The translations under genes were made by a program, and so were the position numbers. From Chiloscyllium plagiosum (taxonomy: Eukaryota): DNA of 64,000 nucleotides. Location of the stretch: assembly GCF_004010195.1 (NCBI RefSeq), contig NC_057742.1, positions 19,385,161 through 19,449,160 on the forward strand, given 5' to 3'. Below the pieces are notes generated by a model. The model made no database searches and had not been told where the DNA came from. It worked only from the letters and a program-made list of their open reading frames with translations. Of this stretch, positions 1,150 through 61,503 are shown piece after piece (the first letter of the stretch is position 1; the number at the start of each line of letters is the position of its first letter).

Positions 1150-1280
1150 ATTCCTGAAGAAGGGCCTGTGCCCGAAATGTCGAATCTCCTGTTCCCTGGA
1201 TGCTGCCTGACCTGCTGTGCTGTTCCAGCAATAAAGTTTCAACTTTGATCTCCAGCATCTGCAGTCCTCACTTTCTCCTC
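1150..1280 (+). mobile_element. Penelope-like 3' terminal fragment (family A) with a minimal hammerhead core at 1154-1181
   Basis: ATTC-CTGAAGA-A-GGGC-CTGT-GCCC-GAAATGTC-GAAT. Near-identical to the copies at 6978-7105 and 19936-20141. Confidence 0.8.
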
Positions 1281-2598
1281 TTGATCAGATGGGCCAATGG
1301 GCTGAGGAGTGACAGCTGGGAGTTTAATTTAGGTAAATGTGAGGTGCTGCATTTTGGAAAGGCAAATCAGAGCAGGACTTACACACTTAATGGTAAGGTC
1401 CTGGGAGTGTTGCGGAACAAAGACCTGGAGTGCAGATTCATAGTTCCTTGAAAGTGGAGTTACAGGTAGATAAGATAGTGAATAAGGCATTTGGTATGCT
1501 TTCCTTTATTTGACAGAGCATTGAGTAGAGGAGTTGGAAGGTCACGTTGCGGCTGTACAGGGCATTGGTTAGGGCAGTTTTGGAATATTGTCTGCAAATC
1601 TGGTCTCCCTCCTATCAGAAGGATGTTGGGAAACTTGAAAGGGTTCAGAAAACATTTACGAGGATGTTGCTAGGATTTGATCTGTAGGGAGAGGCTGAAT
1701 GGGCTGGGGCTGTTTTCCCTGGAGTGTCAGAGGCTGAGGGATAGAACATAGAACATAACAGCGCAGTACAGGCCCTTCGGCCCTCGATGTTGCACTGCCC
1801 TGTCATACCAATCTGAAGCCCATCCCACCTACACTATTCCATGTACGTCCATATGCCTGTCCAATGACGACTTAAATGCACTTAAACTTGGCGAATCTAC
1901 TACCGTTGCAGACAAAGCATTCCATACCCTTACTACTCTCTGAGTAAAGAAATCACCTCTGACATTTGTCTTATACCTATCTCCCCTCACTTTAAAGTTG
2001 TGTCCCCTCGTGTTTGCCGTTCCCATACTTGGAAAAAGGCTCTCCCTGTCCACCCTATCTAATCCTCTGATTATCTTGTAGGTCTCTATTAAGTCACCTC
2101 TCAATATTCTTCTCTCTAATGAGAACAGTCCTCAAGGCCCTCAGTCTTTCCTCGTAAGACATTCCTTCCATACCAGGCAACATCCTAGTAAATCTCCTGT
2201 GCACCCTTTCCAAAGCTTCCACATCCTTCTTCATAGAGGTTAAAAAAACATTAGGGGCATGGATATGGTAAATAGACAAAGTATTTTCCCTGGGTTAGGG
2301 GAATCCAGAGCTAGAGGGCATAGGTTTAGGGTGAGGGGAAAAATTTAAAAGGGACCTACGGGGCAACTTTTTCACGCAGAGGGTGATATCTGTATGGAAT
2401 GAGCTGCCAGAGGAAGTGGTGGAGGCTGGTACAATTACAACATTTAAAAGGCATCTGGATGGATATATGATTAAGAAGGGTTTAGAGGGATATAGGCCAT
2501 TGCTGGAAAATGGGACTAGATTCGGTTAGGATATCTGGTCGGCATGGATGAGTTGGACTGAAGGGTCTGTTCCCTTGCTGTATATCTTATGTGTCTTA
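1281..2598 (+). mobile_element. HER1/CR1 LINE 3' fragment, interrupted at 1741-2232
   Basis: Degenerate ORF2 end (KCEVLHFG; GNFFTQRV..WNELP). 3' end is shared with the HE1 SINE tail. Confidence 0.85.
1741..2232 (-). mobile_element. CR1 LINE 3' fragment of a second family, nested in the previous element
   Basis: ORF 1829-2104 MRGDLIETYKIIRGLDRVD...FFTQRVVRVWNAL; (ATAGAAC)n tail on the + strand. Confidence 0.85.
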
Positions 2599-2609
2599 CA
2601 ATTGTGTAC

Positions 2610-2740
2610 TCCACAACGACCTGATGAAGGAGCGTCGCTCCAAAAGCTAGTGCTTCCAATTAAACCTGTTGGACTATAACCTGGTGTTGTGTGATTTTTA
2701 ACTTTGTACACCCCAGTCCAACATCAGCATCTCCAAATCT
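2610..2740 (+). mobile_element. Penelope-like terminal fragment (family B) with a degenerate hammerhead core
   Basis: CTGATGA-A-GGAGC-GTC-GCTCC-aAAAGCTAGTGCTTC (G12 mutated). Same family as 59839-60036. Confidence 0.7.
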
Positions 2741-4368
2741 TGTAATTTATAACATTGACTGAAGGGTTCGGTCAGGTATCTGATCTTTATCAGATGTTAT
2801 ACTGCAGGTTTCTTTTGTATTGCATGCTTGCCTGTGCTTCTATTAATGAAAGGAAGCATGAACGATCATGAGAAAATGAATGTCTTCAAAGAATAAAATT
2901 GCGTTATGACTGTTGTTTCAGTGAGCAGGTTGGCAGAACAGAATCGCTGCAACAAAGGCCTGGGATTCCTGTGGTCAGAGAGTTTGTTATTTCCACAGTA
3001 CAGACATTTCATCATGATCCTGTGAATTCTGCAGCAGATTCCATGGGAATTGTCTTGGAAATGAAAGATTCCATAGAAAAATTCCTCTGCATCTGATACC
3101 TTCTGAGGGAGAGTGGGGGAGAAAACCCCTTAAAGTTGGAGCTTTCAAAGAGTTTCACTCCTATTATCTGAATAGTGACCCCCGGAAGAAGCTCAGACGC
3201 ATACACCTTCCCCTGACCTCTTACACCCTTTGGATCCCTGGCAACCAGCCCTGATCAGCTTCCTCCCCCTCCCCCACTCCCACACCTGATTCGCCCAGTC
3301 CATACCAGCAGCCTAAAGCTCTCCTGGTAATAAGATCACACCTGCCACCGGTCTCTGTCTGGCAGAGCTGCAGGATATTTGAATCTCAGAAGGTGGCACA
3401 ATGGCTGCTGCAGAAGAGCATGTAGGTTTAAGCGGAGACCATTCACCCCTGCCCCACCATTAAATATGATCATGGCTGATCACTGAGCCTCAGACTGTGC
3501 CCCTTACCTTGTGCCCGATTGATAATCAGAAATTTGTCAATTTCTAACCTTAATCACACTCAAAGACTGAGAATTCCAAATGTTCACTACCCGCTGAGTT
3601 TCTTTTTAAAAATCCTCATCTCAGACCAAGTGGCATCCCTGTCATTTTTAAATTATGCAATCCTGGTACTAGATTCCCCAGCCAGGGGAACATCTTACCT
3701 GAATATGTTTTGTCCATCTCTTTAAGTATTTGTGGGTTATAGTCTGATCACCTCTCATTCTGCAAAACTCTTAGAGTCTAGTTTGCCCAATCTCTCTCTA
3801 TGGGAACAAGTTCTGGTGAATCTTCTGTTATACTCCTTCTCTGGTAATATTCTGTCTCCTGGGATAAGGAGACCAAAGCTGTACTCAGTACTCTGGGTGC
3901 AGTCTCACCAAGCTCCAATAAAACTGAAGCAAATGTAGATTGACTTCCCTGGTTATCCTGCTCTGTGGACGAATTGGATTCGTTTCAGCTTTGTTCCATG
4001 TTTCTGTACGATCCAGGATTAGAATTCCTAACTAGGAGTTCAGTACAACTGTTAAATCAGGAACAAAGTGGTAATCCAACTCCTTGAAATATCTAGGCCC
4101 AAGTGTCTGCGTCTGGTTCATTTTAAAAATTCAGTAGAACTAAAATAGCAAGGACGTGGTTAGCTCAGATGGATCTTGAGGCCAGGAGCAGGCTGCAGAA
4201 AGACACACTGAACCAGGATTCATATGACCCATGGTGTGAAAAAAACACCCTAACAAGAAGCTATGTGATGCGGCAGCTAAATGTGTGATATGTTGAAGAT
4301 CTGAAAATAGAACTATTGCAGTCAGAAGGGATTTGTGGTATTAGCTAACTTATTTTAATGTCTGTCAG

Positions 4369-4643
4369 GTGGACGAAGAGGTCTTTTACTCGAAAGAGAT
4401 GGTATCCAGTCTGGCGTTCGGCCTGGCATTCCTACAGCGAATGGACATGAAACCTGTGGTTGTGATAGGATTTTCATGTCAGCAGGCTGGAGAGCGATCC
4501 GATTCATTCACTGAAACCAAATCCTTATTACTCAGGAATTGCAGGATCCTAACTGATGCACTGCATAGGAATTCAGCTGTCATCATGCCATTTTTTAATG
4601 GAGGTTCCTTACTGAGAGCAGAGGAGTCTTCGTCTCACAACAG
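4369..4643 (+). CDS. NAGS: N-acetylglutamate synthase, exon 2 (VDEEVFYSKEMVSSLAFGLAFLQRMDMKP...EESSSHN)
   Basis: Acceptor tgtcag|GTG, donor AG|gtacat, 275 nt. Contains the NAGS motif SLAFxLAFLQRMDMKP. Confidence 0.96.
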
Positions 4644-6137
4644 GTACATATAACTTTTAGTACAAAAGTCAAAAGTTAAATACTAAAGTATCAATGACTC
4701 ATAGATTGGAACTTCACGAATTGCATTGAATGTCAATGATGTACCAAGATAAATAACTGCTTTGAAGTCATTGTTTAAGAATCACACATGTTCTTGCTTC
4801 ACTGTAAATTGCATATAGCACAAATTGGAAAAATGATCAATTTTCAGACAGTGATTGAATTTCCCTAGCTCTCAGATTAGTAATGCTGGAAAAGGGAAGA
4901 GAGGCACTAAATGGCATTCCCGACTCGTGGAGTCAAGACCGTATCCTGGAACTGTTATTTCTCACAACTGTGTGCTAAGTGTCTCTCAATGATCACGGTG
5001 CTTGTTTAGCACCAGTAAGCTGTGGCAGGTGCTGAGCCATTGCAGCTAATCTCTTGAATATGGACAATACAATTCCTCCTTTAAGCAGAAAATATGTGGA
5101 TATTTTCCCTGCTAAGACATCAGCAACAGTATCATAGAAATTGAAGCTTTAAATTGCAACAATGTATCTGATTTTGTGAGCAAATCATTCTTCGAGAGAA
5201 GAATAGGCATTCTGCATTTTTCATTAAAAAGGGAATTGTTGTCCCATCTCCACCGCTCCGCCCTCCCACAAAAAAAAGTCAATACATCAACTTTGGGGAA
5301 TGGAAAGGAAAGGCCTCCTCTACTCAGGAGAACAGTGCACCACTAATTTTATTTATTAGTTTTCTCTTTTCATAATTCCTGGGATTTTGAGGGTCATTGA
5401 CTCGGGCCATCTCTATTTGCATTCGAGAAGGTGGTGGCGATCTGCATTCTTGAATAACTGCAACACATGTCGTGTAGATACACACAACCTTGTCAGGATT
5501 GGAGCTCCAGGGTTTTGACCCGATGACAGGGAAGAAAAGGCAATGTAATTCCAAGTTAGGATAGTGTGGGGCTTAGAGGGGAACTTGCAGATGGGGGTGT
5601 TCCCATGTATCTGCTGTCCTTGTAGAGGTGCTGGAAGTTGAAGGTTTAGAAGGTGCTGTTGGAGGAGATGTGGTAAGTTGTTCCAGTGCGTCTTGTAGAT
5701 GATACAAAGTGCAGCCACTTTGCTTTGTCAGTTTCAGATAGGATCTCAGTAAAGTGGGCTTGGATCGTATCAAGGTTCCTGAGTGTTGCTGGGGCTGCAC
5801 TTGTTCAGGCAGGTGGAGAGACTTCCATTACACTATTGACTTATGTGGTACGTGGTAGACAGGCTTTAGGAAGTCAGGAGGGGAGTTACTCAGTTCAGAA
5901 TTCCTAATATTTGACCTGCCGTTGTAGCCACTGTATTTGTATGGCTGGTCCAGTTCAGTGTCTCACAGTGGTAAACCTTGTTGGCACTGGGGAAATCAGT
6001 GATGATAATGCCATTGAACATCAAGTGGCAATAGCTGAATTCTCTTTGGGAACTGATCATTGTGGCCACTTGTGTGGCATGAATGTTACTTCCCATTATT
6101 CAACACAAACTTGAATGTTACCCAGGCCTTAGTGCAA

Positions 6138-6460
6138 TTAGATTAGATTAGATCCCCAACAGTGTGGAAACAGGCCCCTCGGCCCAACCAGTCCACACCG
6201 ACCCTCCGAAGAGTAACCCACACAGACCCACTTCCCCTCTGACTATTGCACCTAACATTATGGGCAATTTAGCATGGCCAGTTCACCTAACCTGCACATT
6301 TTTGGATTGTGGAAGGATACCGGAGCACCCAGAGGAAACCCACGCAGATACGGGGAGAATGTGCAAACTCCACACAGACAGTTGCCCGAGGCTGGAATCA
6401 AACCTGCGACCCTGGTACTGTGAGGCAGTGGTGCTAACCACTGAGCCACCGTGTCACCCC
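6138..6460 (-). mobile_element. HE1-type tRNA-derived V-SINE
   Basis: tRNA-like head, V-domain TGTGTGGAGTTTGCACATTCTCCCCGT, (TAATC)n tail. Confidence 0.9.
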
Positions 6461-6977: not shown

Positions 6978-7102
6978 GGGAGAAAGTGAGGTCTGCAGAT
7001 GCTGGAGATCAAAGTTGAAACTTTATTGCTGGAACAGCACAGCAGGTCAGGCAGCATCCAGGGAACAGGAGATTCGACGTTTCGGGCACAGGCCCTTCTT
7101 CA
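6978..7102 (-). mobile_element. Penelope-like short element (family A), intact hammerhead core 7076-7103, 14-bp TSD
   Basis: TSD ggatttgacctgca at 6964-6977 and 7103-7116. The - strand reads CTGAAGA-A-GGGC-CTGT-GCCC-GAAAC-GTC. Confidence 0.85.
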
Positions 7103-7411
7103 GGATTTGACCTGCATCTTGTGGGTGGAACATGCCTGGGCAGTTTTTCACATTGTTGAGCAGCTGCCAGTGTTGAAGCATATTGGAACAGCAAGGCTAC
7201 AGGCATGGCTAATTCTGGAGCAGAAGTCTTCAGTAATATTGTGGGAATGTTGTCAGGCCCCATAGCCTTTGCAATATCTGCTACCTTCAGTCATTTCTTG
7301 ATATCACATGGAGTGAATCAAATGGACTAAAGATGACATCTGTGATGTTGGGGATTTCAGGAGGCAGCTGAAGATAGACACAAGTAATTCAGCTTTGTCT
7401 TTTGTACTGAT

Positions 7412-7750
7412 GGGTGTCATGGTGGCTCAGTGGTTAGCACTGCTGCTTCACAGTGCCAGGGACTTGGGTTCGATTCCAGCCTCAGATGACAGTCTGTGTG
7501 GAATCTGCACATTCTCCCCATGTCTGCGTGGGTTTCCTCCGGTTGCCTCTCATGGTCCAAAGATGGGCAGGTTAGTGGATTGGCCGTGTTAAGTTGTCCA
7601 TAAAGTCCAGGGATGTGCAGGCTAGGTGGATTAGTCATGGGAAATGCAGGGATGGGATGGGTCTGGGTGGGCTGCTCTTTGGAGGGGCGGTGTGGACTTG
7701 ATGGGCAGAATGGCCTGCTTCCACCTTGCAGGGACTTTATGATTCTATGA
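7412..7750 (+). mobile_element. HE1-type V-SINE (older copy)
   Basis: A box TGGCTCAGTGG, B box GGTTCGATTCC, V-domain, CR1-derived tail. Confidence 0.9.
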
Positions 7751-8224
7751 ACTAGATTCCCCCATCATTGAAGATGAAGATAATTGTGGGGACTGCTCCT
7801 CCAGTAAGTTGTTGAATTGTCCACCATCATTCATGACTGGATATGGCAGGACTGAAGAGTTTAGAAATGGTTTTGAGGTTGCTTAGCTCTGTTTACTGCA
7901 CACTGCTTTTCTCACTTGGCTTGTGAGTAGTCCCGTGTTGTAACTTCACCAGGTAGATGCCTCATTTTTAGGTGTGCCCTCTTGCACTCTTCATTGGTGG
8001 TTCATGGTAGGGTGGGGATATGTTGGAACATGCCTTTACAGATTATGGTCAAATACAGTACTGGCTGCTTCTGACTGCCACAGTGCCTTTAGGATTCGAG
8101 GAATTGACTTGTTAGGTCTGTTCAAAATCTCTCCCATTCAGCACAACGCTATCGCCAAGGGTAACTTCAACGTAAAGTCAGACCTTCGTCTTCACAAGGA
8201 ATGTGTGGTGAATATATAAACACA

Positions 8225-9840: not shown

Positions 9841-9849
9841 ACTCAGAAC

Positions 9850-9980
9850 TCAATCTTGAAGAAGGGTCACTGGACCCTGAACATTAATTCTGCTTGCTCT
9901 CCACAGATGCTGTCAGACCTGCTGAGCTTTTCCAGCAATTTCTGCTTCTGATTTCCAGCAAATGCAGTTCTTTTGGTTTT
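9850..9980 (+). mobile_element. Degenerate Penelope-like terminal fragment (family C)
   Basis: ttGAAGA-A-GGGTC-ACTG-GACCC relic of the core, followed by CAGATGCTGTCAGACCTGCTGAG. Related to 16740-16845. Confidence 0.6.
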
Positions 9981-11115: not shown

Positions 11116-11326
11116 AATATCCTGCTCAATGGCTTTGAACTTCCTCACTAGAGGAGATAGTTTACATCTATTTATTTCATAAAAGCATTTAATCATTTTA
11201 ATTTAATTCACATTCATTTTGCAATTATAGTGAACCTAGGGCCTTTGGCCTACTTCAATTTCTTATGTTTGACTGCCAACGAGAGCTAGAGTAACAACAG
11301 GGTTGACTCTGATTTTTATTGTGTAG

Positions 11327-16739: not shown

Positions 16740-17175
16740 CAGAAGCAAAAATAGAAATTGCTGGAAACGCTGAACTGGTCTGACAGTATCAGTGGAGAGA
16801 AATAAAGAGTGAACATTTCGGATTGATTGACCCTTCCTCAGAACTGATGGTAGCTAGGAAAATGCCGGTTTATATGCAGATAATGGGGTGAGGGTAAGGA
16901 GTAAACAATAGGTGGGGATAGATCCCAAACAGAGAGAGAAGAACAGTTCGACAATCAAAGGTATGAATAATGATCTGGCTTGGAGGGTAAATAGCTGTTT
17001 GTGGGGACTGTTAGTGGCTAACAATGGGTAATGTGCAACAGCAGACTATGTAATAATAAGGCTTAGTTATGGGGATAATGGTAAGGACATGGCAGAGCTC
17101 AAGCCCCAAAGTTATTGAATTTAGTATTGAGTCCGAAAGGCTATAGGGTCCCCAAGTGGAAACTGAGGTACTCAG
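16740..17175 (-). mobile_element. Penelope-like 3' fragment (family C): GIY-YIG ORF end plus hammerhead core 16812-16841
   Basis: The - strand translates YLSFHLGTL*PFGLNTKFNNF (compare LIFRLGTLQPQGINVDF at about 61155). Core CTGAGGA-A-GGGT-CAATCA-ATCC-GAAA. Confidence 0.7.
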
Positions 17176-17304: not shown

Positions 17305-17520
17305 CAAACTACTGCAGATGACGGAAAATGGAAACAGACAGAAAATGCCAGAGAAACTCAGCAGGTCTGAAAGCATCTGTGGAGAGAGAAACAGTTAAAG
17401 TTTCAAGTCCAGTATGACTCTTCGGTTCTAAAGAAGAGTCGTACCAAACTCAAAATCTTATCTCTGTTTCTCTCCCCAAGTGTGCTACCAGACCTGCTGA
17501 GTTTCTCCGGCATTTTCTGT
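17305..17520. mobile_element. Degenerate fold-back Penelope-like element
   Basis: Inverted arms (ACAGAAAATGCCAGAGAAACTCAGCAGGTCTG / CAGACCTGCTGAGTTTCTCCGGCATTTTCTGT) with GACTCTTC / GAAGAGTC at the centre. Confidence 0.7.
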
Positions 17521-19265: not shown

Positions 19266-19935
19266 GCATATGTTTGGTTTGGTTACGGCTTAATGCAGTA
19301 GTCAGGTAGGATGTGCAGAACGTGACAGTTGTTTTTGTGGAGATCAGGCTACTACAAGCAAATGAAGTGGATGTAATTGCTGTGTGATTGGCTGAGGCAG
19401 CACTGTGCATGAAATGTGCATGGTTGAGATATTATTGTGTTGGAATTTTGAGCCGATGGAACATACAGCTGTTATATAATGAGGTTTATCTCTCAATGGT
19501 TTGCTGCTTTGTCATACACATGATCACTAATATGATACCTTTAGCTTTGTAACCCTGCTTTATGTTGCATATCCTACCAAATGCATATTAGTCACTGAAC
19601 TGTTGCACATCATTTTCATTGTTTTATTTTAAAACTACATATTATATAATACAAATGATGAATCAGTGGGCAACCCTACAATGCTGGTTTTCCCATATAT
19701 TCCTTTGAGTAAAATGAGCATCTGATTATGGAAAATTGTGCTTCCTGCATAAAAATGAAGCTGCTTACATTTATATCATGTCATGATAAACAAGTGTCAA
19801 TTGGACAGAAATACTTAAACTTCTCATAAAATACATTCACAAGAATTTCTAATAGGATATAGTATAAGTAAGATAAGCATAATACAATCCATAAGGAACT
19901 CCAAAATTTTGAGGTCAGTGGGATTGAATTGGTTC

Positions 19936-20141
19936 TTTATTGCTGGAACAGCACAGCAGGTCAGGCAGCATCCAGGGAACAGGAGATTCGACGTTTCGGG
20001 CACAGGCCCTTCCTCAGGAAGGGCCTGTGCCCGAAACGTCGAATCTCCTGTTCCCTGGATGCTGCCTGACCTGCTGTGCTGTTCCAGCAATAAAGTTTCA
20101 ACTTTGATCTCCAGCATCTGCAGACCTCACTTTCTCCTCCC
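19936..20141. mobile_element. Young fold-back Penelope-like element (family A): perfect 79-bp inverted repeat, 15-bp TSD
   Basis: TSD ggattgaattggttc at 19921-19935 and 20142-20156. Arms 19935-20013 and 20017-20095. Hammerhead core on the - strand at 19990-20017. Confidence 0.9.
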
Positions 20142-20221: not shown

Positions 20222-20639
20222 TAAGTTAGCTTGCTGAGTTTGAAGGTTTGGTTTCAAATGTTTTATCACCATACTAGGTAACATCAGTGAGAGTCTCTGG
20301 TGAAGCCCTGATGGTATGTCCTGCTTCTCTATTTATAGGTCTTGGTTTCTTAAGGTATCATTTCTGGTTCTAACCAGAACTCCATCAATAAACGCATTGA
20401 TTTAGACCTTATCTACCTTCCCTTGGGGGAAAAAAAGAACCGAAAAGACATCACCTACCTTAAGAAACCCAAGACCTAGAAATAGAGAGGCAGGACATAC
20501 CACCAGCACGTCACCAGAGACTCTCACTGATGATGTTACCTAGCCATGGTGACGAAACACCTGAAAAGAAACCTTCAAGCTCAGCAAGCTAACTTACATA
20601 CTTATCACCAACTTGAGCTACAAATCTTCTCAAAAATCG
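20222..20639 (+). mobile_element. Penelope-like element (family D) with inverted 5' arm, ORF end and hammerhead core 20527-20560
   Basis: NSINKRIDLDLIY (20378-20416). Core CTGATGA-T-GTTACC-TAGCCAT-GGTGAC-GAAAC. 20222-20350 is an inverted copy of about 20445-20596. Confidence 0.8.
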
Positions 20640-29126: not shown

Positions 29127-29254
29127 GGAGAAAGTGAGGACTGCAAATGCTGGAGATCAGAATTGAGAATGTGGTGCTGGAAAAGCACAGCAGGTCAGAC
29201 AGCATGAGGAGCAGGTTAATCCACATTTCAGGCATATGTCCTTCATCAGGAATC
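29127..29254 (-). mobile_element. Penelope-like short element (family A, older) nested in a CR1 tail
   Basis: Core CTGATGA-A-GGAC-ATAT-GCCT-GAAA at 29222-29249 (-). gtgttc is repeated on both sides. Confidence 0.75.
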
Positions 29255-31849: not shown

Positions 31850-32460
31850 CATACAACTGCTGGAAAAAAAGACACATTTTTGTGAAAGCATTCATCTTGC
31901 ATTCATCAGGACAATTTGCAAGAAATAATAAAGTAAAAGAGAAACACCATTTATACTGTATGAGAGGAGAATGCTTTTTGGTAACAGGTGGACTTTGAAT
32001 AGTAGATGTGCTGCTGTGGAGAATGCACCAGTTTATGATGGGTAACAGTTACCTGCCAAAACCTGTTTAGATTTTAAACCAGGCAGGCTCATTCTAACAG
32101 GCTAAGGCATTGCCCAAGAAATGAACCAGCGAATGCCTGTCACCTATTTTGTTGAGTGTTCTTTCCATTTACCTTGTGTATTCATATATGTAGTTTCCAC
32201 GTGCCACACTGCAAGCCCAACTGGCAATCTTAAATTGGTTGTCAGCACAATTCTTTGGACACTCTCAATTATTTTGGTGGAGGCTGGTACAATTGCAACA
32301 TTTGGATGGGTATATGAATAGGAAGGGTTTGGAAGGATATGGGCCAAGTGCTGGCAGGTGGGACTAGATTGGGTTGGGATATCTGTTCGGCATGGATGGG
32401 TTGGACCGAAGGGTCTGTTTCCATGCTGTACATCTCTATGACTCTATTTAGCAAAATGTC
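31850..32460 (-). mobile_element. Old Penelope-like 3' fragment (family E) with a HER1 3' end (about 32276-32447, +) inserted in it
   Basis: VETTYMNTQG (GIY-YIG C-terminal LEA.YI-like motif). CCTGATGA-ATGCAAGAT-GAAT relic near 31885-31910. Homologous to 39330-39870. Confidence 0.65.
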
Positions 32461-39329: not shown

Positions 39330-39870
39330 TCAGAAAAGGATATATTTTGCTGAAACCTTTTGTCATGCATTCTTCATGACAGTTCCAGGGGAACAACATT
39401 TGTATTAGAAGTGTGCTGATGGTTGGCAAGTGGATTGGTATAGATATTGTCGAGAGTGGAAAAGTACAGCAGGTCAGGCAGCACCAGAGGAGCAAGAGAA
39501 GTGACATTTCGGGTACAAGCCCTTCATCAAGTATAGATATTGCCAAAGAGAATGCATCAGTTAGATAACAAGTGACAGCTTGCAAGTTTTATTTATATTT
39601 AAATAGGCAGGTTGACTCGGATTATCCTAAAGAATTAACCAGATTGCTGTTAGCTATTTTGTTCAGTATAAACAGGTGCAGTATGTGTACTTGTCTTTCG
39701 GTCTGCAAGGAACAGGCTCCTGCATATCAAGGTATGCAGTTTCCAGTACAGGCAAGTATGTTATACTGTGAGCCAGACTGAATCTTAAATTGGTTGACAA
39801 TGTAATTCATAACTCATCTGGGATTGTTTAACAAATGCTGACAAATCACAGAATCACATCTAATGTTGGA
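39330..39870 (-). mobile_element. Old Penelope-like 3' fragment (family E)
   Basis: The - strand translates CDSVICQHLLNNP.*..Y..NQFKI, typical of a PLE GIY-YIG C-terminus. Confidence 0.7.
39450..39530 (-). mobile_element. 81-bp family A-like Penelope fragment with a 12-bp TSD, nested in the family E element
   Basis: TSD gtatagatattg at 39438-39449 and 39531-39542. Core relic tTGATGA-A-GGGC-TTGT-ACCC-GAAATGTC. Confidence 0.8.
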
Positions 39871-46472: not shown

Positions 46473-46667
46473 GGGAGAAAGTGAGGACTGCAGATGCTGG
46501 AGATCAGAGCTGAAAATGTGTTGCTGGAAAAGTGCAGCAGGTCAGGCTGCATCCAAGGAGCAGGAGAATCAACGTTTCGGGCATGAGCCCTTCTTCAGGA
46601 ATGGCTCCTGATGCAGCACTTGAATGCTGCCTGACCTGCTGCGCTTTTCCAGCAACACATTTTCAGA
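46473..46667 (-). mobile_element. Fold-back Penelope-like element (family A), hammerhead core 46571-46598, 13-bp TSD (1 mismatch)
   Basis: TSD tcaaaaaatttca at 46460-46472 and tcaaaacatttca at 46668-46680. The - strand reads CTGAAGA-A-GGGC-TCAT-GCCC-GAAAC-GTT. Confidence 0.85.
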
Positions 46668-52829: not shown

Positions 52830-55035
52830 TAGCAAGAACATGCAAATGCTGGGATTTGAGGCAAGTTTACATTTGCAAACTGTTGAAAGGACAAAGATGG
52901 CAGTCACTGGAGTGGTATGCTGTCATAGGAGAGAAATCAGGGAACAGTCGACTGCCCCAGAGACGACGTATGGGTTTGGATGCTCGTCAAATCAGACCAT
53001 TTGGACTGGCTGCAGAGCCAGTTAGAGTCACTGAGGAGCATACAGGAGGCACAGAGTGTGATGGATAGTAGCTTCAGAGAAGTGGTCAGACTACAGGTAC
53101 AGTCAGGTGACTTAGGAAGACTCAAATGCGCAATTGTGATAGGGGACTCTCCAATCAGGGGCATAGGCAGATGATTCTGTAACTGTGTGCAAAACTTCAG
53201 GATGGTGCGTTGTCTCCTTGGGGCCAGGGTGAAGGACATCTTGGAGCGGTTGCAGCAGTTGAGAAAGACCCTTTATCCCCACTCTCTGCTTTCTGCCAGA
53301 TTGCCACGCTTCTATCCATGCTAATACCTTGCCTCTAACACCATGGGTCCTTATCTTATTCAGGAGCCTCCTGTGCCACACCTTGTCAAAGGCATTACTG
53401 CAGTCCACGTGGATAACATCCATGGCCCTACTTGGTCTAACCTGCTCGTTACTTCCTAAAAAGAATTCTACTGGCAGATTTGTCTGGCACGACACCCGTC
53501 CCCCACCCCCCCACCCTAGATGAAACCATGCTGACTTTGCCCTAGTTTATCAAACACTTACAAGTATTCAGAAGTCTCATCCTTCACAATGGACTCAAAT
53601 CTTACCCACAACCGAGGTTAGGCAAATCAGCCTGTAATTTTCTGCCTTTTCCCTTACTCCCTTTTTAAACACATGTGTCACGTTAACGATTTTCTAGTCT
53701 TCTGGGACCTTTCCTGACTCTAGTAGTGATCTTTCAGGAATTACTAATGTCTCCACTATCTTTTCAGCTATCTTCTTTAGAACTCTGGGGTGTAATCCAT
53801 CTGGTCCAGGTGATCCATCCACCTTCAGGATGTTCAGTTTTACTAGCACCTTCTCCTTGGTGATGGCCACCATATTCAGCTCTGCTCCCGAAACTCTTGA
53901 ATGTTTGGGATATCACCTGTTAATGCTTGCTATTGTTACTCAGGTAGCCTTACACTAGAATGGTTGGGGGCAGAATTCTAAGCAGTAGTGAAAGAGAGAG
54001 AATTTTGAGGTAAGTTAATGGGAGCAGGTTAAATAGTTAAGAAAGGCAAGAATACAGCAGAGAACAAGGCAAAAACTAGAAGAATTAAAATGTATTTATT
54101 TATTTCAATACAAGAGGCGTGACAAGTAAGGCAGATGAACTCAGGGGATAGATGGGAACATGGAACTGGGATATCACAGCTATTTCAGAACTATGGTTGA
54201 GGGAGTGACAGGACTGGCACCTCAACCTTCCAGGGTATAGATGCTATAGGAAGGACAGAAAGGGAGGCAAGAGTGAAGGGGGAATTGGCATTTCTGAGTA
54301 GGGAAAACATAACAGTCTCCACTGAGAGGGGATATTCCTGAGAGATCATCCGGTGAAGCTACGTGGGTGGAACTGAGAAATAAGGGAATGATCACCTTGA
54401 GGGGATAGGCTCTCGGACAGTCACTCGGAAACTGAGGAGTAAATAAATAGGGATGTCTCAGATATCGGTCAGAATAACAGGGCTGTAATAGTGGGTGATT
54501 TTAACTTTCCAAACATAGTCTGGATCCTGCCATAGTATTAAAGGCTTGATGGGGAAGAATTAGTGTTCATGAAAACGATCTTTCTTTATCAATATGTAGA
54601 TATACCTACTGGTGAGGGAGGAAAACTCTACCTTCTCTTGGGAAATAAGACAGCGCAAGTGACTGAGGTGTTAGTGGCAGAGCACTTTGGGACAAGTGAC
54701 CATAATTCCATTAGTTTTAAAATAGTTATGGAAAAGGATAGTCCGAGTATAAAAAGTTTAAGTTCTAAGCAGGGTATTAGACAGGAACTTTTAAAAGTTG
54801 ATCAGAGTAGGTTGCTCACAGGTAAAGAGATGACTGTAAGGTGGAATGTTTACAAAGGTGAGATAACAAAGTTCAGAGACAGTATGTTCCTGTTAGAATG
54901 AAGGGCAAGGCTGGAATAAGAAAGAGAACAGTGGATGACTAAACATATTGAGGCTCTGGTCAAGAAATAAAAAGGGGGTATATGTCAGGTATAGACAGTT
55001 AAGATCAAGTGAATCCCTTGAGGAGTATAGAGATC
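52830..55035 (+). mobile_element. CR1 LINE 5'/middle fragment (ORF1 esterase and ORF2 APE endonuclease remnants) with an antisense CR1 RT fragment (about 53265-53910) nested in it
   Basis: AIVIGDSPIRG (GDS esterase motif); GDFNFPNI, LYLLLGN and SDHN (APE motifs); minus-strand AFDKVWHRRLL..GVRGKVLAWI (RT). Confidence 0.8.
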
Positions 55036-55207
55036 CCACAGTCACTAACTCTCCACTATAGTTCAAGATGCAAGAGTCGGGTGGTTATGAAAGGAAAAGG
55101 AGAATAAAATACAGAAACATTTGTACAAGTATCATAAAATCACAAGCCTATTGACAAGAACAAAAAATCAACTTCAAGATCTTTTAAAACACAAATAAAC
55201 GCCATTA

Positions 55208-55550
55208 ATAGAGTCATAGAGATATATAGCACAGAAACAGACTCTTCAGTCCAATTCATCCATGCTGACCAGATATCCTAATTTAATCTAGTCCCATTTG
55301 CGAGCACTTGGCCCATATCCCTCTAAACCCTTCCTATTCATATATCCATTCAGATGCCTTTTAAATGTTTTAATTATACCAGTTTCCACCACTACCTCTG
55401 GCAGCTCATTCCATACACACCACCCCTTGCTTGAAAAAAAAATTTCCCCTTAGGTCACTTTCAAATTTTTCCCCTCTCACCCTAAACCTTGTCCCTCTGG
55501 TTCTGGACGCCCCCACCCCAGGGCAAAGACCTTGTCTATTTGCCTTATAT
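55208..55550 (-). mobile_element. HER1/CR1 3' fragment
   Basis: Homologous to 59505-60230 but without the two PLE insertions. Confidence 0.85.
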
Positions 55551-56057
55551 GCACCAAAACAGAATCCGCTCCTTGCTCACGCATAAAATTTGAAATTAAA
55601 ATAATTTCAATGTAAACCGCATTCTGATTCAAACAAATTGTTTCACAAAAGTGTATCACTTTGAGTGGATAGATTATCACCGAGTTCAGAATTGCACTGC
55701 TCTGTACAATAATGATATAGCAGCTAAATGTACTTTTAAGGCAAATGCACACTTTGGCATATAATATATTCCTGTTACCCAGGTCTGTGAACACCAAAAC
55801 CACCTTGGGCAAGGGTTACAATAAGGATACAATCCTAGTGTTGTGCTAAGTTAATGTAAGTAGCCCCTAGTCTGAACAGTCCCACAAATTACAGCCTTGA
55901 ATCATCTTGCGAATAAAGAGTTAAGGAGCAAAATGAAACTTTACAGCTATAAACTACAGATCATTATTCACACATTAAGATAGGTGTCAGGATTAAATTA
56001 GAATGTAAAAACTGCTAAGGACCAGCCACTATAAAGTCGTGCAAAAGCCAAAACGTA

Positions 56058-56275
56058 CAGTTGGTTCTGCTATAACGCGAGTTTCTTCAACTCGAATTGG
56101 CTAGAATGCGGTTGAAGAATATAGACCATTATTTGTAGAATGTCAGCGTTTCTTATCAATATGTGGTATAATGTGTTCCCAGACCATTAGTTTAAGTGGC
56201 GCTGCTATTATGCAATTTTCTTATAACACGGGATTGCAAAGGATCAGAACTAACATGTTATATCAGAACTGACTG
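56058..56275. mobile_element. Tc1/mariner-pogo (Tigger-like) MITE
   Basis: TA flanks at 56056-56057 and 56276-56277. Imperfect TIRs CAGTTGGTTCTGCTATAAC / GTTATATCAGAACTGACTG. Confidence 0.75.
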
Positions 56276-56340
56276 TACTTGGAGCAGGATTTTACATTTA
56301 ACTAGATCCCACAGAACATCAACTATTTTGTTTCTCTTAC

Positions 56341-56521
56341 CTTCAGCCAGTCCCCATAATGGACTTGTTCTCCAATGTATGACGCATATGTACTAACAGC
56401 CAATTGGAGGGCAGCCCCCAAAGCAAACCACCTCCTCTTCACTCCAAAAGACATGAAACTGGCACAAATCACTGCGGCACCCATATCAAAATAGAGGTAT
56501 GGCACTGGAATATCCGGCTTC
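56341..56521 (-). CDS. TMEM101: TMEM101 exon 2 (KPDIPVPYLYFDMGAAV...VHYGDWLK)
   Basis: Acceptor ctttag|G, donor AAG|gtaaga, 181 nt. Confidence 0.96.
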
Positions 56522-57854
56522 CTAAAGAGATGGCACAAGGCTATCACTTTCAGTGGAAAACCAGTAAACGTATACACAGATTAGTTGATTACAACGTAAT
56601 TCTTGAAATCCTTTGCAGGAATTTTTTTAAAAATCAATTACTTGAACATCCTTGGAAAAACACATTTATAGATTGAAATTTATTCTGGCAAATATCAAAC
56701 TAGTACTAAGTATACTTGTTAAAAACTACAACTCTTGGAGACCTTAGGTAGCAAAGGAATAATAAACCTCATTTATTAACCTTGAAAGTGCAATGCAAAC
56801 CAATCTCAGATGATGGCCAGGAATGAGGCAAAATAATCTTAATGTCAGAACCTAGCAGCCAGCTTCTCCATATTAAGTAGATGATATCAAAATTTCTGTG
56901 CTCCTGGAAGCCAGTTGTAAGCAATCTATTTCTAACTCAGTGTAATGAGAAAGTATTATCTCAGTCTTGTTCTTCTGAGGATTGAGACAAGCTCTCCCCC
57001 AATGGAATTTGCTATTCTTGTGCAGCTGCTGCACAAGCTACGAATAGTTGACCTAAACAAAAATGAAGAGGCATTTTACATTCAATAATTTAAGCTGCGG
57101 CCAATGTTTAGAAAATTATATTGCAAAATGTCAAGAACAATATTAAATTAATATCTTTCAGCTTGCTAACCTTATCCATTGCCCATTAAGAAATATGGTA
57201 GCTTCCCAATAAATCTCAATTTTTCATAACTAGAATATCTATTTTGCAGACTTTCATAATTTTGACTTCTTTCATAATTTCGATTTCTTTCACAATTGGT
57301 CTGAGTCATGAGGAGCTACAATTCCATAAATACTGACAGGTCCAATCACAAAAGTAATAATTCCTTACACAAGTAATAATTCTTCACACAAGACTACTAT
57401 AATAGGGTGTTAGTAGATAATAAATGGTATCTATTGTCAGAAAGCATTAGCATAAAGAAACCTTCTAGCAAAAACCAATAAAAGACAAAAGAAAAGCAGG
57501 AACCTCAGTTAATCTTTCCCCCCCACAAAGGACATTTTCACCCTTTCTATCTCTCCACTCAAGTTAACTAATTCATTGTAAACTAGCAACAACATTCTGG
57601 TCATTTTAGTTAACATACACATACTTTCAAATGAGTATTAATTTTTTTCAGCAAGATCCTGCATTTATCAAGCCCCTTGACACAAACATTGCCAGGCCTT
57701 TCACAGCTGTGTTATCCAAAACAATTTAGCAGCAAGCAACATTATATATGAACACAGATCTTCATAGCTTCCAGTTGCCATGATAGTAAAATATTTTGAA
57801 GCAAACTGATGGCAATTTTTTTGAAAAATCTTTTAGGTTGAATGGAGGTTGTTG

Positions 57855-57889
57855 AACAAACAAACAAACAAACAAACAAACAAACAAAC
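57855..57889. repeat. (AAAC)n microsatellite
   Basis: About 8 tetramer units, directly visible. Confidence 0.95.
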
Positions 57890-58219
57890 TCAACTTTTGC
57901 AGAAACTTCCTGTTCCTTGGTGTTGTTTGAAACAGAGAATGCCATGCTCCCCAAGCAATTTCTGACAAAGGGCCATCAAGCTTAGGCGTTACTTTAGTCC
58001 TGCTGCTGAGCAATTTTCAGCATCCATAATATTACGCTTTTGCCTCCAGTGGTTTATTTCTTCAAAGCGAAATAAAACGTCCATTTATATGGCGCCGTGC
58101 TACTCCACTGGCTGTCTGAAAGTGTTTTAGAGGCAATGAAGTACTTGGGAGGTATAGGCACTGTTGTAAAGCAGGAAACAGGGCAAATAATGCACACAAA
58201 CTTTATAAATATCCAACGA

Positions 58220-58760
58220 AGTGATAACGACCAGATAGCGCTTTGGGGATGTTGACGGACAAAATAGTGCCACGAAATGCTTTCCAGCGGATGGGGCCCT
58301 CAGTCAAACGGCATCTGCGACAGTGCAGCACTGCACCCGGAGGGCCAGCCTCCGATGGGACTTGGACCACAGGTACACCTCTTCTAGCGCGCTTTAAAAC
58401 AAGTGTGACCTCCCGGTGAAGAGTCTTAATGAAACGGGACCGGGTGATGGACAAGCCGCTGTTTATTTTAGCCTCAGGGGCTCCCGCGGCTTTGTCCTCA
58501 GGCCCCTCGCCCCCCTCCTACTCACACTCACACTCACCTGCGCTGGTCGGCCCGCTCCGCGAACAGCATCAACATGCTGAAGCAGTTCCAGAACGGGAAG
58601 CGGGTCAGGATGATGGCGCCGAAGCGCATGAGGATTTTAAAGAGCCGCCTGCGAACCTCCAGCGCCATTACTTCCCGGCCCGGCCCGTCCACTAAACAGT
58701 TCCGGCTGGAAACCCGGCTCCTGGAGACAGGTTCCCACTCCCTCCCAGACCGCGCAGTCC
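58220..58760 (-). promoter_or_regulatory. CpG-rich promoter / exon 1 island of TMEM101
   Basis: Clearest CpG-dense stretch in the window, centred on exon 1. ETS-like CCGGAA on the - strand at about 58700-58705. YY1-like ATGGCG overlaps the start codon. No evident TATA box. Confidence 0.7.
58538..58668 (-). CDS. TMEM101: TMEM101 exon 1 (MALEVRRRLFKILMRFGAIILTRFPFWNCFSMLMLFAERADQR); absent from the ORF track
   Basis: ATG at 58668 in gtaATGG context, donor AG|gtgagt. LTRxPFWxCFSxLMLxAERA motif. Confidence 0.93.
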
Positions 58761-59552
58761 CCTTGCTCCTGAGACAGAATCCTCAACTTTTAAATATTCT
58801 AGACTCACTGACTAAATCTTGCATAATTTATTTTTCAATATAACCCGTGTATGTTACCATTTTAAAATAAATAAACCCAGGTTGTGATCAGTCTTTCTGG
58901 CTATTAGTTCCCTCATCACAGAAGCTTCAATTTGATTTAACGCTCTTTCAACCTACAAACTACTGAGATCACAAATTAAATAGCGACATTAGATTTACAG
59001 AAAGTGTTCAACAATGTAACTCACAAAAGGTTGAATTGTAAAATAAGAGCCCCCAGTGTTAGAAGTTATATATTGGCATGGATAAAGAATTAGCTCATGG
59101 GCAGGAAGCAGCCAGTGGGGATAAGTGGTTCTTTTTCAGGTTGGCAAACTGTGACTAGTTAAATTCCAAAGGGATCAATGCTGGGACTGCAAATTTGAAA
59201 TATGTTAAAGACTTAGAAGAAGAAAGCAAATGTGTAGCACAAAATCACATGAGAGAACTCAATGGAGATCATGGAGTGAAACCCTCCATGGAATTCCCTC
59301 AAATAGTCACTTAGCTAATTTTTGGTCAAATTCAATCCTGTATTTTCTACAAAACAAAATCTCCCTTTTTCCAGGCTTACCTTCAAAACAAACCATGTCT
59401 GAACTCACCTTAAGGACATACAAAGCCTATTTATTTCCTTTTTTCAATGAGATAATTTGAAGAGATGGTTGAAATAATAGAGAGATCATGCAAATACAAT
59501 AGTAGAATCATAGAAATGTATAGCACGGAAACAGACCCTTCAGTCCAACTCG

Positions 59553-59710
59553 GGGAGAAAGTGAGGACTGCAGATGCTGGAGATCAGAGCTGAAAATGTG
59601 TTGCTGGAAAAGCGCAGCAGGTCAGGCAGCACCAAGGAACGGGAGAATCGATTCTCCTGTTCCTTGGATGCTGCTTGACCTGCTGCACTTTTCCAGCAAA
59701 ACATTTTCAG
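59553..59710. mobile_element. Fold-back Penelope-like element (family A) lacking the hammerhead core, 17-bp TSD
   Basis: TSD cccttcagtccaactcg at 59536-59552 and 59711-59727. Palindrome centre GGAGAATC|GATTCTCC. Confidence 0.88.
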
Positions 59711-59838
59711 CCCTTCAGTCCAACTCGTCTATGTTGACCAGATGTCCTAAACTAATCTAGTCCCATTTGCCAGCACTTAGCCCATATCCATCTAAACCCT
59801 TCCTATTCATATATTCATTCAGATGTCTTTTAAATGTT

Positions 59839-60036
59839 AAAAATCACACAACACCAGGTTATAGTCCAACATGTTTATTTGGAAGCATTAGCTTTCGAAG
59901 TGCTGCTCCTTCATCAGGTGGTTGTCCTAATGAACCAAAAGCAAGTGCTTCCAAATAAACCTGTCGGACTGTAACCTGGTGTTGTGATTTTTAACTTTAT
60001 ACACCCCCGTCCAATACCGGCATCTCCAAATCATGA
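59839..60036. mobile_element. Fold-back Penelope-like element (family B), hammerhead core 59882-59917 (-), 12-bp TSD
   Basis: TSD cttttaaatgtt at 59827-59838 and 60037-60048. The - strand reads CTGATGA-A-GGAGCAGCACTTC-GAAAGC-TAAT-GCTTC. Confidence 0.85.
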
Positions 60037-60894
60037 CTTTTAAATGTTGTAATTATACCAGCCTCCACCATTTCCACTGGCAACACATTCCATACACGCA
60101 CCACCCTCAGTGAAAAAGTTGCCCCTTAGGTCCCTTCTATATCTTTCCCCTCTCAGCCTAAACCTATGCCCTCTAGTTCTGGACTCCCACACCCCAGGAA
60201 AAAGACCTTGTCTATTTAGTCTATCCATGCCCCACATGATTTTATAAACCTCTATAAGGTCAGCCTCCAATGCTTCAGTGAAAACAGCCTCAGACTATTC
60301 AGCCTCTCCCAATAATTCAAACCCTCCAACCCTGGCAACATCCTTGTAAATCTTTTCTAATCCCTTTCAGGTTTCACAACATCCTTCCTGTAGCAGGGAG
60401 ACCAGAATTGCACACGTTATGCTAAAAGTGGTCGAACCAATGTCCTGTACAGCCGCAACATGACCTCCCAATTCCTATACAATGCTCGGACCAATAAAGG
60501 AAGGTGTACCAAACACCTTCTACACTATCCTATCTATCTGTGACTCCACCTTCAAGGAACTATGAACCTGCACTCCAAGGTCTCTTTGGTCAGCAACACT
60601 CCCTCGGACCTTGCCATTAAGTGTATAAGTCCTGCCCTGATTTGCCGAATCAGACTTAAATTAACCTCAGGTCCAATTTAGCGCAATTCCTTCTTTTCAT
60701 GGAATATTAGGGTCACAAAGCAAGGCCAGCATGTGCTATCTTTGAGAAGATGGTGAGCTGCCTTCTTGAATTTCTGCAGTCCACCGGTTGTAGTTACACC
60801 CACAGTATTGTTAGAAAGAGAATTCCAAATTTTTGACCCAGCAACATTGAAGGAATGATATAGCATTATTGTTCCAAGTCAGAAACATGTGTGG

Positions 60895-61503
60895 TAAAAA
60901 CAATGACTGCAGATGCTGGAAACCAGATTCTGGATTAGTGGTGCTGGAAGAACACAGCAGTTCAGGCAGCATCCGAGGAGCAGTAAAATCAACGTTTCAG
61001 GCAAAAGCCCTTCATCAGGAATACAGGCAGAGAGCATGAAGGGTGGAGAGATAAGNNNNNNNNNNNNNNNNNNNNNNNNNNNNNNNNNNNNNNNNNNNNN
61101 NNNNNNNNNNNNNNNNNNNNNNNNNNNNNCACCAGACGCCTGGAGGAAGAACGCCTCATCTTCCGCCTCGGAACACTTCAACCCCAGGGCATCAATGTGG
61201 ACTTCACCAGTTCTCTCATTTCCCCTTCCCCCACCTCACCCCAGTTCCAACCTTCCAGCTCAGCACTGTCCCCATGACCTGTCCTCCCTGCCTATCTTCT
61301 TTTCCACCTATCCACTTCCCCCTCCCCCACTCACTTATTGTACTCTATGCTACTTTCTCCCCACCCCCACCTTCCTCTCACTTATCTCTCCACCCTTCAG
61401 GCTCTCTGCCTGTATTCCTGATGAAGGACTTTTGCCCGAAACGTCGATTTTACTGCTCCTCCGATGCTGCCTGAACTGCTGTGCTCTTCCAGCACCACTA
61501 ATC
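60895..61503. mobile_element. Penelope-like element with inverted termini, GIY-YIG ORF end and two hammerhead cores, spanning an assembly gap; 15-bp TSD
   Basis: TSD cagaaacatgtgtgg at 60880-60894 and 61504-61518. TRRLEEERLIFRLGTLQPQGINVDF from 61131. Cores at 60991-61018 (-) and 61418-61445 (+). Confidence 0.88.
61056..61129. other. Assembly gap (74 N)
   Basis: Run of N. Confidence 1.

What the first reader, a model, noticed from the sequence alone, without database searches (positions are those of the whole stretch)
1150..61449. Dispersed minimal hammerhead ribozymes carried by several Penelope-like families
Seen: the motif CTGA(A/T/G)GA + 1 extra nt + hairpin + GAAA occurs at 1154(+), 7076-7103(-), 16812-16841(-), 19990-20017(-), 20527(+), 29222-29249(-), 46571-46598(-), 59882-59917(-), 60991-61018(-) and 61418(+). 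Decayed copies occur at 2621, 9856, about 17430, about 31900 and 39503-39530. The catalytic nucleotides stay fixed while stem II differs between families (GGGC/GCCC, GGAGC/GCTCC, GTTACC/GGTGAC, GGGT/ATCC) and its loop varies within family A (CTGT, TCAT, TTTT, TTGT). Family A has a short helix I (ATTC/GAAT) and reads GAAAC-GTC with no helix III loop. Established: PLEs are known to carry minimal type I hammerheads that cleave as dimers through a palindromic helix III (here ACGU). Inference: this shark locus is densely seeded with catalytic-RNA motifs from at least four families, which gene-centred annotation would miss.
Basis: partly seen in the sequence, partly recalled or inferred. Interest (0 to 1): 0.8.

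Follow-up and report, generated by a model that had tools for sequence, protein, structure and literature searches.

The report
Penelope retroelement hammerhead leftovers
The small self-cutting-RNA motifs are real, but they are the already described "minimal hammerheads" at the ends of Penelope-like jumping genes, left here as short, mostly damaged and probably inert copies that are common throughout this genome.

Summary
All 10 listed motifs and all 5 decayed sites are there, far above chance (8 strict hits against 0.17 in shuffles). Families A, B, C and D each lie behind a GIY-YIG endonuclease end, and family A also behind a reverse transcriptase. They are the minimal type I hammerheads of Penelope-like element (PLE) pseudo-LTRs described in 2014. 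Helix I and the helix III palindrome covary between families while the flanks do not, so the motif was selected in the source elements. The locus is not special: its density matches random stretches, and the genome holds 98,673 exact family-A cores. Only 3 of the 10 copies keep core, stem II, the ACGU palindrome and a cleavable triplet, and none has a same-strand partner nearby. Copies start mostly just before the ribozyme, not at its cut site. In B, C and D that start sits near 30 nt below a TATA-like box, which suggests uncleaved, promoter-started templates (inferred). No cleavage was tested. The scan found the same thing before in other windows of this genome and in another genome. Verdict: new member of a known kind, low interest.

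The parts
1150..1185 (+). Family A1 min-HHR at the head of a ~165-nt copy (1150 to ~1278); helix III reads AUGU (CpG decay). Sense strand of the NAGS-like gene, probably intron 1 (exon 1 not seen in the window)
2618..2652 (+). Family B copy, decayed (G12>A)
7072..7107 (-). Family A1 min-HHR with intact core, stem II, ACGU and GUC; one A.A mismatch in helix I; antisense to the NAGS-like gene
9852..9890 (+). Family D copy, decayed (C3>T, damaged GAAA)
16808..16845 (-). Family D min-HHR preceded by TAGCTACCATCAGTT; helix III AUGU and first helix I pair broken
17342..17515 (.). Head-to-head pair of decayed D-like copies
19890..20139 (.). Head-to-head A1 unit: minus-strand HHR (19986-20021) intact but inside a perfect 64-bp hairpin; plus-strand partner has G5>C at the junction; only the right arm carries the ~35-nt tail
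20524..20564 (+). Family C motif; U16.1>C (reads GAAACACC), predicted dead
29218..29253 (-). Family A copy with G at position 17, AUGU and a mismatched stem II; predicted dead
31880..31915 (-). Decayed member of a fifth, older family (F): relatives read GTCCTGATGAATGCAAGA(TG/CA)AAAAGCTT(TG/CA)ACAA, so a 6-nt palindrome AAGCTT and at most a 2-bp stem II; PLE link not tested
39499..39534 (-). Family A copy, decayed (C3>T, AUGU)
46567..46602 (-). Family A2 min-HHR with intact core, stem II and ACGU, GUU triplet; part of an inverted unit 46471-46666; about 2.5 kb below the TMEM101 stop, past two AATAAA signals (48699, 47940)
59551..59710 (.). Head-to-head A2 tails with no ribozyme core; the palindrome centre falls on the predicted cut site (only 8 such exact loci genome-wide)
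59886..59920 (-). Family B min-HHR: core and AGCU intact, first helix I pair broken (C.A)
60987..61022 (-). Family A3 min-HHR in the inverted upstream arm; G10.1.U11.1 wobble, GUU triplet
61131..61220 (+). C-terminal 29 codons of the PLE GIY-YIG endonuclease, 90% identical to the end of a Pfam GIY-YIG-positive frame in locus L008
61414..61449 (+). Family A3 min-HHR in the 3' pseudo-LTR of that truncated PLE; A.C mismatch in stem II

Best explanation
The motifs are the minimal type I hammerheads of PLE pseudo-LTRs, spread as short dead-on-arrival insertions. In the source element the pLTR serves as 3' UTR of one copy and as promoter and 5' UTR of the next (established). Transcription starts a few nucleotides above the hammerhead (inferred from TATA-like and initiator-like motifs). 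The PLE protein primes reverse transcription at one of two internal sites, about 92 or 127 nt below C3 in family A (two 3' ends shown; their cause inferred). Copying from there to the RNA's 5' end gives a 100-135-nt unit that starts at helix I and holds the whole, uncleaved ribozyme. Two such cDNAs are often joined head to head through short microhomologies (structure shown, mechanism inferred). In a tandem element the ribozyme would cut 3' of the NUH as a dimer through the ACGU or AGCU palindrome, probably helped by the PLE protein (from the literature, not tested). The scattered copies lack a partner, decay, and are most likely inert.
For: PLE link: Pfam RVT_1 (E 7.5e-5, below the curated cut-off) and GIY-YIG (E 4.4e-5, above it) in family-A relatives; GIY-YIG in C (E 0.0025, below cut-off; BLASTP to the A domain 3e-9); the A domain aligns upstream of B (L027, E 5e-8) and D (L043, E 5e-8) copies. 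Covariation over 12 hand-picked natural copies: helix I pair 1 is C-G, A-U or U-A and pair 2 is U-A, A-U or C-G (12 of 12 paired each), 15.2-16.2 is C-G or G-C, while 20-nt flanks share 0-9 of 20. In 108 hits from sources not chosen for these features, 93 and 95 pair at helix I pairs 1 and 2, and 78 have a palindromic tetramer with 23 more one CpG step away (mostly family A). 5' ends, 163 of 171 tail-selected A copies (8 next to N dropped): 49 ends in 457 at-risk positions at -6..-1, 22 in 2324 at +6..+22, 12 in 1359 around the cut site. D: 22 of 30 end at 0..-6, TATA-like box at -32..-34; C: 1 of 30 at 0..-6, 6 of 30 at -14..-20, box at -47..-51. 3' ends are bimodal, 35 nt apart, in 170 copies, the PLE tail. 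80 of 122 short copies have an inverted partner upstream. G12 at its CpG decays like other CpGs, 5 of 81 against 25 of 405. Reads and contigs from three public runs show many unrelated flanks joining at 61414, position -4.
Against: No cleavage assay and no transcription start mapping. Genome-wide, copies preceded by two non-consensus bases number 635 at the cut site against 392 five nt downstream and 231 four nt upstream, so a small cut-site excess is not excluded, though microhomology confounds all three counts. Core A/T positions show 0 changes in 567 against 12 in 891 for non-core A/T (p=0.005); subfamily variants may explain this, but it could be selection. Family A, the largest, has no TATA box in its long copies (references), and B's ends (-3..-14) fit TATA+30 only loosely. 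The C windows were chosen after seeing the data (p=0.012 and 0.004). The A sample comes mostly from the first 3 Mb of one contig and includes both arms of some units.
Confidence: 0.85

Rival explanations
1. The 5' hot spot comes from reverse transcriptase stalling at the folded ribozyme, or from microhomology between helix I sequence and AT-rich targets, on long 3'-primed templates. The copies are then ordinary 5'-truncated PLE insertions and say nothing about where the RNA starts.
For: In A and D the hot spot coincides with helix I; family A has no TATA box; heavy 5' truncation with an adjacent inverted copy is the known PLE pattern (PMC8557442 passages).
Against: Family C has the same fold, yet only 1 of 30 copies ends at 0..-6 against 22 of 30 in D (p=1.5e-8), and its cluster moves to -14..-18 in step with its TATA-like box. 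The hammerhead fold is weak, about -7 kcal/mol, z near 0.
Confidence: 0.3
2. Some solo copies cut host or element RNA in vivo, as trans-dimers between abundant transcripts or with help from the PLE protein, and so affect host pre-mRNAs (for example 1154+ in the NAGS-like gene or 46598- below TMEM101).
For: 98,673 exact A cores exist; reads from one RNA run of a related organism cover the motif on both strands; PMC11167929 shows a protein-assisted PLE hammerhead; core A/T sites look better kept than non-core ones.
Against: Helix III gives only -1.7 kcal/mol for ACGU and is unfavourable for AUGU at 1154; 46598- lies past two AATAAA signals; PMC4209133 found no monomer activity and low dimer activity; PMC11167929 found no reads ending at the cut site; C/G and CpG core sites decay at the background rate.
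Confidence: 0.08
3. The short units are an independent SINE-like or retrozyme-like family that replicates through its own self-cleaved or circular RNA.
For: Copy number is very high (144,339 exact tail matches), and short units far outnumber long ones (122 short against 47 long in the sample). Non-LTR retrozymes were reported in one chondrichthyan (bioRxiv 10.64898/2026.07.22.740005).
Against: No head-to-tail arrays in the window; every short subfamily has long copies that run into a PLE ORF end; short copies start below the TATA-like box and so lack it; unit ends do not match the cut site.
Confidence: 0.07
4. The motif is a chance match kept by repeat amplification and has no ribozyme ancestry.
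For: No Rfam hammerhead hit; amplification inflates counts over shuffles; core identity across families is partly circular because the core was the search term.
Against: Features outside the descriptor covary across four families with unrelated flanks: 16 of 16 Watson-Crick pairs, permutation P=1.4e-4 (columns treated as independent). The position in the pLTR and the architecture match PMC4209133.
Confidence: 0.02

Closest known systems
Minimal type I hammerheads (min-HHR) in pLTRs of metazoan Penelope-like elements (Cervera and De la Pena 2014, PMC4209133)
   Same: Core CUGANGA/GAAA, one extra nucleotide between 9 and 10.1, G10.1-C11.1, palindromic 15.2-16.2 with no loop 3, short helix I, several families per genome, mostly solo copies, some opposite-strand pairs 100-700 bp apart.
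   Different: Copy number is about ten times the highest figures given there (about 4,000 coelacanth, 9,000 Xenopus; descriptors differ). No shark term was found in the parts read or in the two searchable supplements. Helix I is only 2-4 bp in the main families.
Endonuclease-positive PLE insertion units, Neptune and Penelope/Poseidon clades (Craig et al. 2021, PMC8557442; Frangieh et al. 2024, PMC11167929)
   Same: C-terminal GIY-YIG, pLTR with HHR, 5' truncation, adjacent inverted copy, optional 30-40-nt tail on one arm. Family A has a CX4CxxC motif just before the endonuclease, as described for Neptune-type linkers; C lacks it in the pieces seen.
   Different: No full-length element was examined and no tree was built, so the clades are tentative. 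The 5' hot spot that follows a TATA-like box was not found in the passages read; Drosophila Penelope has a TATA-less internal promoter (PMC2377424).
Non-LTR retrozymes (bioRxiv 10.64898/2026.07.22.740005)
   Same: Type I hammerhead, derived from PLE pLTRs, reported in one chondrichthyan.
   Different: Retrozymes are head-to-tail arrays with a ribozyme in each unit; these copies are solo or head-to-head.

Membership tests
PLE min-HHR | Core C3 U4 G5 A6 N7 G8 A9 ... G12 A13 A14 A15.1 / U16.1 H17 | tested here: met
   All 12 family representatives. In the window 8 of 10 copies keep it; 20527 has C at 16.1 and 29249 has G17.
PLE min-HHR | Extra nucleotide between A9 and 10.1, and a G10.1-C11.1 pair | tested here: met
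   Extra A (A, B, D) or U (C); G-C in 94 of 108 hits. The descriptor required one extra nucleotide. Many C copies have G.U at this pair.
PLE min-HHR | Palindromic 15.1-16.1 (helix III formed only in a dimer) | tested here: met
   ACGU in A, C, D and AGCU in B; 78 of 108 palindromic, 23 more CpG-decayed.
PLE min-HHR | Type I helix I with covariation | tested here: met
   Pairs 1 and 2 formed in 12 of 12 with three pair types each; pair 3 in 9 of 12.
PLE min-HHR | Location in the pLTR behind an RT plus GIY-YIG ORF | tested here: met
   A: RT and EN. B, C, D: EN end. Family F not tested.
PLE min-HHR | Self-cleavage as a dimer or with protein help | not testable with these tools
   Needs a bench assay.
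EN+ PLE insertion unit | Optional 30-40-nt tail and adjacent inverted 5'-truncated copy | tested here: met
   Two 3' ends 35 nt apart; inverted partner in 94 of 171 copies.
EN+ PLE insertion unit | Full-length single ORF between two direct pLTRs | not tested
   Only 3-10 kb stretches with broken ORF pieces were read; no full-length copy was sought.
Non-LTR retrozyme | Head-to-tail tandem units, each with a hammerhead | tested here: not met
   No such array in the window; same-strand copies lie 1.1 kb (different families) to over 17 kb apart.
Rfam hammerhead families | Covariance-model match | tested here: not met
   None among 11 matches at E<=5.

The most novel reading that the evidence does not exclude
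This genome holds a record, about 10^5 copies deep, of what the PLE ribozyme does in the germ line. The solo units are full cDNAs of pLTR-started RNA whose 5' end follows each family's own TATA or initiator, primed internally in the first pLTR. They were made almost wholly from uncleaved RNA, so the conserved hammerhead is kept silent during insertion and must act at another step, such as translation control or RNA turnover. That would make the open question of PLE hammerhead function testable by end counting.
Probability: 0.4. Interest if true: 0.45.

Novelty: new member of a known kind. Interest (0 to 1): 0.22.

Why it matters
As a finding about this locus it matters little: the motifs are standard PLE pLTR remnants at the genome's ordinary density. 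Two side results have some value. The copy number (at least 108,000 exact motif matches over four families) is about ten times published vertebrate counts. The end statistics give genomic support, independent of the anole in vitro work, that uncleaved RNA is the insertion template, with a testable prediction of where each family's transcript starts.

Tried and rejected
Rfam scan: no hammerhead family; the microRNA hits are the head-to-head hairpins. Cut-site footprint: the 59551-59710 palindrome is centred on the predicted cut, but genome-wide only 8 such exact loci exist against 15 centred on ACGT, so it was rejected as evidence of cleavage. Start-site counts of 635, 392 and 231 could not be cleaned: by hand count of the first 100 rows, 35 are preceded by AG, as at the end of an inverted partner, and 14 rows are 7 palindromes centred two bases downstream; flanks could not be fetched. 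RNA evidence: no RNA holder listed. Laying one raw poly(A) single-cell run of another coded organism gave 1475 reads on both strands and no place where many molecules begin or end; the second run gave 0 reads; such libraries cannot show 5'-OH ends, so this is no test of cleavage. Splice-acceptor explanation of the 5' hot spot (as at the Drosophila Penelope intron): D has an AG there but A1-A3 do not, so rejected as a general cause. Cofolding two copies did not give the dimeric hammerhead as lowest-energy structure; the model has no tertiary terms, so this is uninformative. Pfam found nothing for the 30-aa window peptide or the short B and D peptides, and the B peptide alone gave no BLASTP match to A; the link came from tblastn. 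Host genes: 77 of 81 frames of 85 aa or more were scanned (4 overlapping the N run left out). Literature searches for a shark or chondrichthyan PLE hammerhead paper and for a 5'-end or start-site account found none beyond those cited. Lunse et al. 2017 is not held, and one supplement of PMC4209133 and all bioRxiv supplements could not be seen; any of them may list shark examples.
Full report
Observation. The five decayed sites are also real. Rfam gives no hammerhead match among 11 hits at E<=5. Copy by copy, only 7103-, 20017- and 46598- keep the core, a paired stem II, the ACGU palindrome and a cleavable triplet. 1154+ and 16841- have AUGU; 20527+ has C at 16.1; 29249- has G17; 59917- and 16841- lose the first helix I pair; 61018- has G.U at 10.1-11.1; 61418+ has an A.C mismatch in stem II (which lesions matter is recalled hammerhead biochemistry). 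20017- lies inside a perfect 64-bp hairpin of -144.8 kcal/mol.

What carries them. The window is G000:C33:19385161-19449160 of a 3.56-Gb genome. 61418+ follows 29 codons that match the end of a GIY-YIG domain; relatives carry Pfam RVT_1 (E 7.5e-5, under the cut-off) and GIY-YIG (E 4.4e-5, over it). Long copies of family C run into a GIY-YIG frame, and the family-A domain aligns upstream of B and D copies at E 5e-8 each. So all four families are 3' ends of endonuclease-positive Penelope-like elements. Exact genome counts, with 0 for each reversed control: A core 98,673, A tail 144,339, C 5,764, B 3,764, D 352, and 196 for an older fifth family to which the 31900 site belongs. The window's density (8 in 63,926 nt) does not differ from 28 arbitrary 10-kb stretches (23 in 274,190 nt; p=0.36).

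Is it a ribozyme by descent? Over 12 hand-picked natural copies, helix I pair 1 is C-G (A, B), A-U (C) or U-A (D); pair 2 is U-A, A-U or C-G; pair 3 swaps C-G and U-A within C and is U.U in A2 and A3; 15.2-16.2 is C-G or G-C. Four families give 16 of 16 Watson-Crick pairs (permutation P=1.4e-4, columns treated as independent), while 20-nt flanks share 0-9 of 20 bases. Core identity itself is circular, since it was the search term, but these pairings were not in the descriptor: in 108 hits from sources not chosen for them, 93 and 95 pair at helix I pairs 1 and 2, and 101 have ACGT, AGCT or a CpG-decayed form (mostly family A, so not independent). Among copies, core CpG sites change at 5 of 81 against 25 of 405 elsewhere and core C/G at 6 of 243 against 22 of 1072, as expected for neutral decay; core A/T sites change at 0 of 567 against 12 of 891 (p=0.005), which goes against neutrality and may reflect unresolved subfamilies.

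Anatomy of the copies. I took family-A copies by a tail pattern that starts 16 nt below the cut site, so 5' ends were not selected. Of 171 copies, 8 next to N were dropped. The chance of ending per nucleotide is 10.7% at -6..-1 (C3 = 0), 0.95% at +6..+22 and 0.88% at +23..+31 around the cut site. 80 of 122 short copies and 14 of 47 long ones have an inverted partner upstream. 3' ends fall in two groups 35 nt apart in 170 copies, and in the window's inverted units only one arm has the longer end. These are the tail and the inverted-copy signature of PLEs (PMC8557442, passages; PMC11167929, parts 1-2 of 4). In 30 copies each of B, C and D (selected on the ribozyme, so ends are at or above it): D ends at 0..-6 in 22, with a TATA-like box at -32..-34 in 4 of 5 long copies; C ends there in 1 but at -14..-20 in 6, with the box at -47..-51 in 5 of 6; B ends at -3..-14 in 16, with the box at -39..-40 in 6 of 6. 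The C windows were set after seeing the data (p=0.012 and 0.004). Family A has no TATA box, only an initiator-like TCATTC or TTATTC (promoter consensus recalled). Reads and contigs from three public runs show many unrelated flanks joining at 61414, position -4.

Search for a trace of cleavage. Copies made from cut RNA should start at +28. Genome-wide counts of copies preceded by two non-consensus bases were 635 at +28, 392 at +33 and 231 at +24. This is a numerical excess, but the listing is dominated by dinucleotides expected from microhomology with an inverted partner (35 AG, 23 GA of 100 rows, hand count), and even taken whole it is about 1-2% of the family. Perfect palindromes centred on the cut site number 8, against 15 centred on ACGT. 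There is no strong footprint; a small one is not excluded.

Host context. Pfam places a NAGS-like gene on the plus strand (AA_kinase 11313-11597, under the cut-off; NAT 27604-27864) and TMEM101 on the minus strand (56326-56580, 49063-49407); further exons near 4345-4650 and 58537-58670 were recognised by eye. The intact 7103- and 20017- are antisense to the NAGS-like gene. 46598- is on the TMEM101 strand but past two AATAAA signals. 1154+ is probably sense in intron 1 but has AUGU, whose dimer helix is unfavourable (+2.6 against -1.7 kcal/mol for ACGU).

Mechanism. Shown: PLE origin, covariation, two 3' ends, a 5' hot spot, inverted pairs, decay. From the literature: transcription from the pLTR (PMC2377424, passages), internal priming and insertion from unprocessed RNA with a protein-assisted hammerhead (PMC11167929), no monomer and low dimer activity (PMC4209133, parts 1-2 of 4; PMC6765202, passages). 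Inferred: the short units are cDNAs running from an internal priming site to the transcript's start, made from uncleaved RNA, and inert where they lie. I put 0.85 on the identity and inertness, and about 0.55 on the promoter-start account of the hot spot against stalling or microhomology.

What is known. PMC4209133 describes this motif, its extra nucleotide, its palindrome, its families, and solo and opposite-strand copies in fishes, coelacanth (about 4,000) and Xenopus (about 9,000). The 2026 preprint 10.64898/2026.07.22.740005 (part 1 of 5 and passages) reports PLE-derived retrozymes in one chondrichthyan. PMC6155905 was seen as passages. Lunse et al. 2017 was seen only as a reference. Searches found no paper on shark PLE hammerheads or on this 5' hot spot; unseen supplements may hold shark examples. 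Earlier notes of this scan reach the same verdict on other windows, and one already notes the 5' clustering; I had written that idea down before looking. No note on the TATA link was found.

Verdict. A correct catch of a known kind, at an ordinary locus. Interest 0.22.

Noticed in passing
window 4345-27864 (+) and 49063-58670 (-): A NAGS-like gene and TMEM101 face each other tail to tail; the same neighbourhood in human is recalled, not checked.
   Followed up: partly
window 31880-31915 (-) and 196 genome matches: An old fifth hammerhead-like family with a 5-bp helix I, a 6-nt palindrome AAGCTT and room for only a 2-bp stem II; it may be a short-stem or pseudoknotted variant.
   Followed up: partly
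window 6140-6456, 9485-9799, 12740-13055, 13121-13446, 32778-33102, 7411-7739, 23089-23373, 43675-43805: Many copies of a ~310-nt SINE with a tRNA-like head and an (AGATT)n end shared with a LINE; it resembles the elasmobranch HE1 SINE (name recalled).
   Followed up: no
window 53115-53546 (-): A LINE reverse transcriptase fragment (Pfam RVT_1, E 2.5e-5); further LINE 3' fragments at about 394-672, 1400-1680, 8204-8482, 55200-55580 and 60030-60580.
   Followed up: no
window 59497-59838: The head-to-head A2 unit 59551-59710 is inserted inside a LINE 3' end, which it splits.
   Followed up: no
window 19987-20041, 59609-59691, 17342-17515: The head-to-head PLE hairpins score weakly as Rfam microRNA precursors (all below gathering scores); such units could pollute microRNA predictions or feed small-RNA pathways.
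   Followed up: no
loci L133, L135, L161 (family A4) and L030 9230 (GGGTTACACCC stem): Further A-like subfamilies with different upstream pLTR sequence or an 11-nt stem II region exist beyond those in the window.
   Followed up: no
G000:C4:54039857-54040066 and locus L136: Same-strand pairs 177 nt (family D) and 360 nt (family A tails) apart occur elsewhere in the genome; such pairs are where a cis-dimer could form.
   Followed up: no
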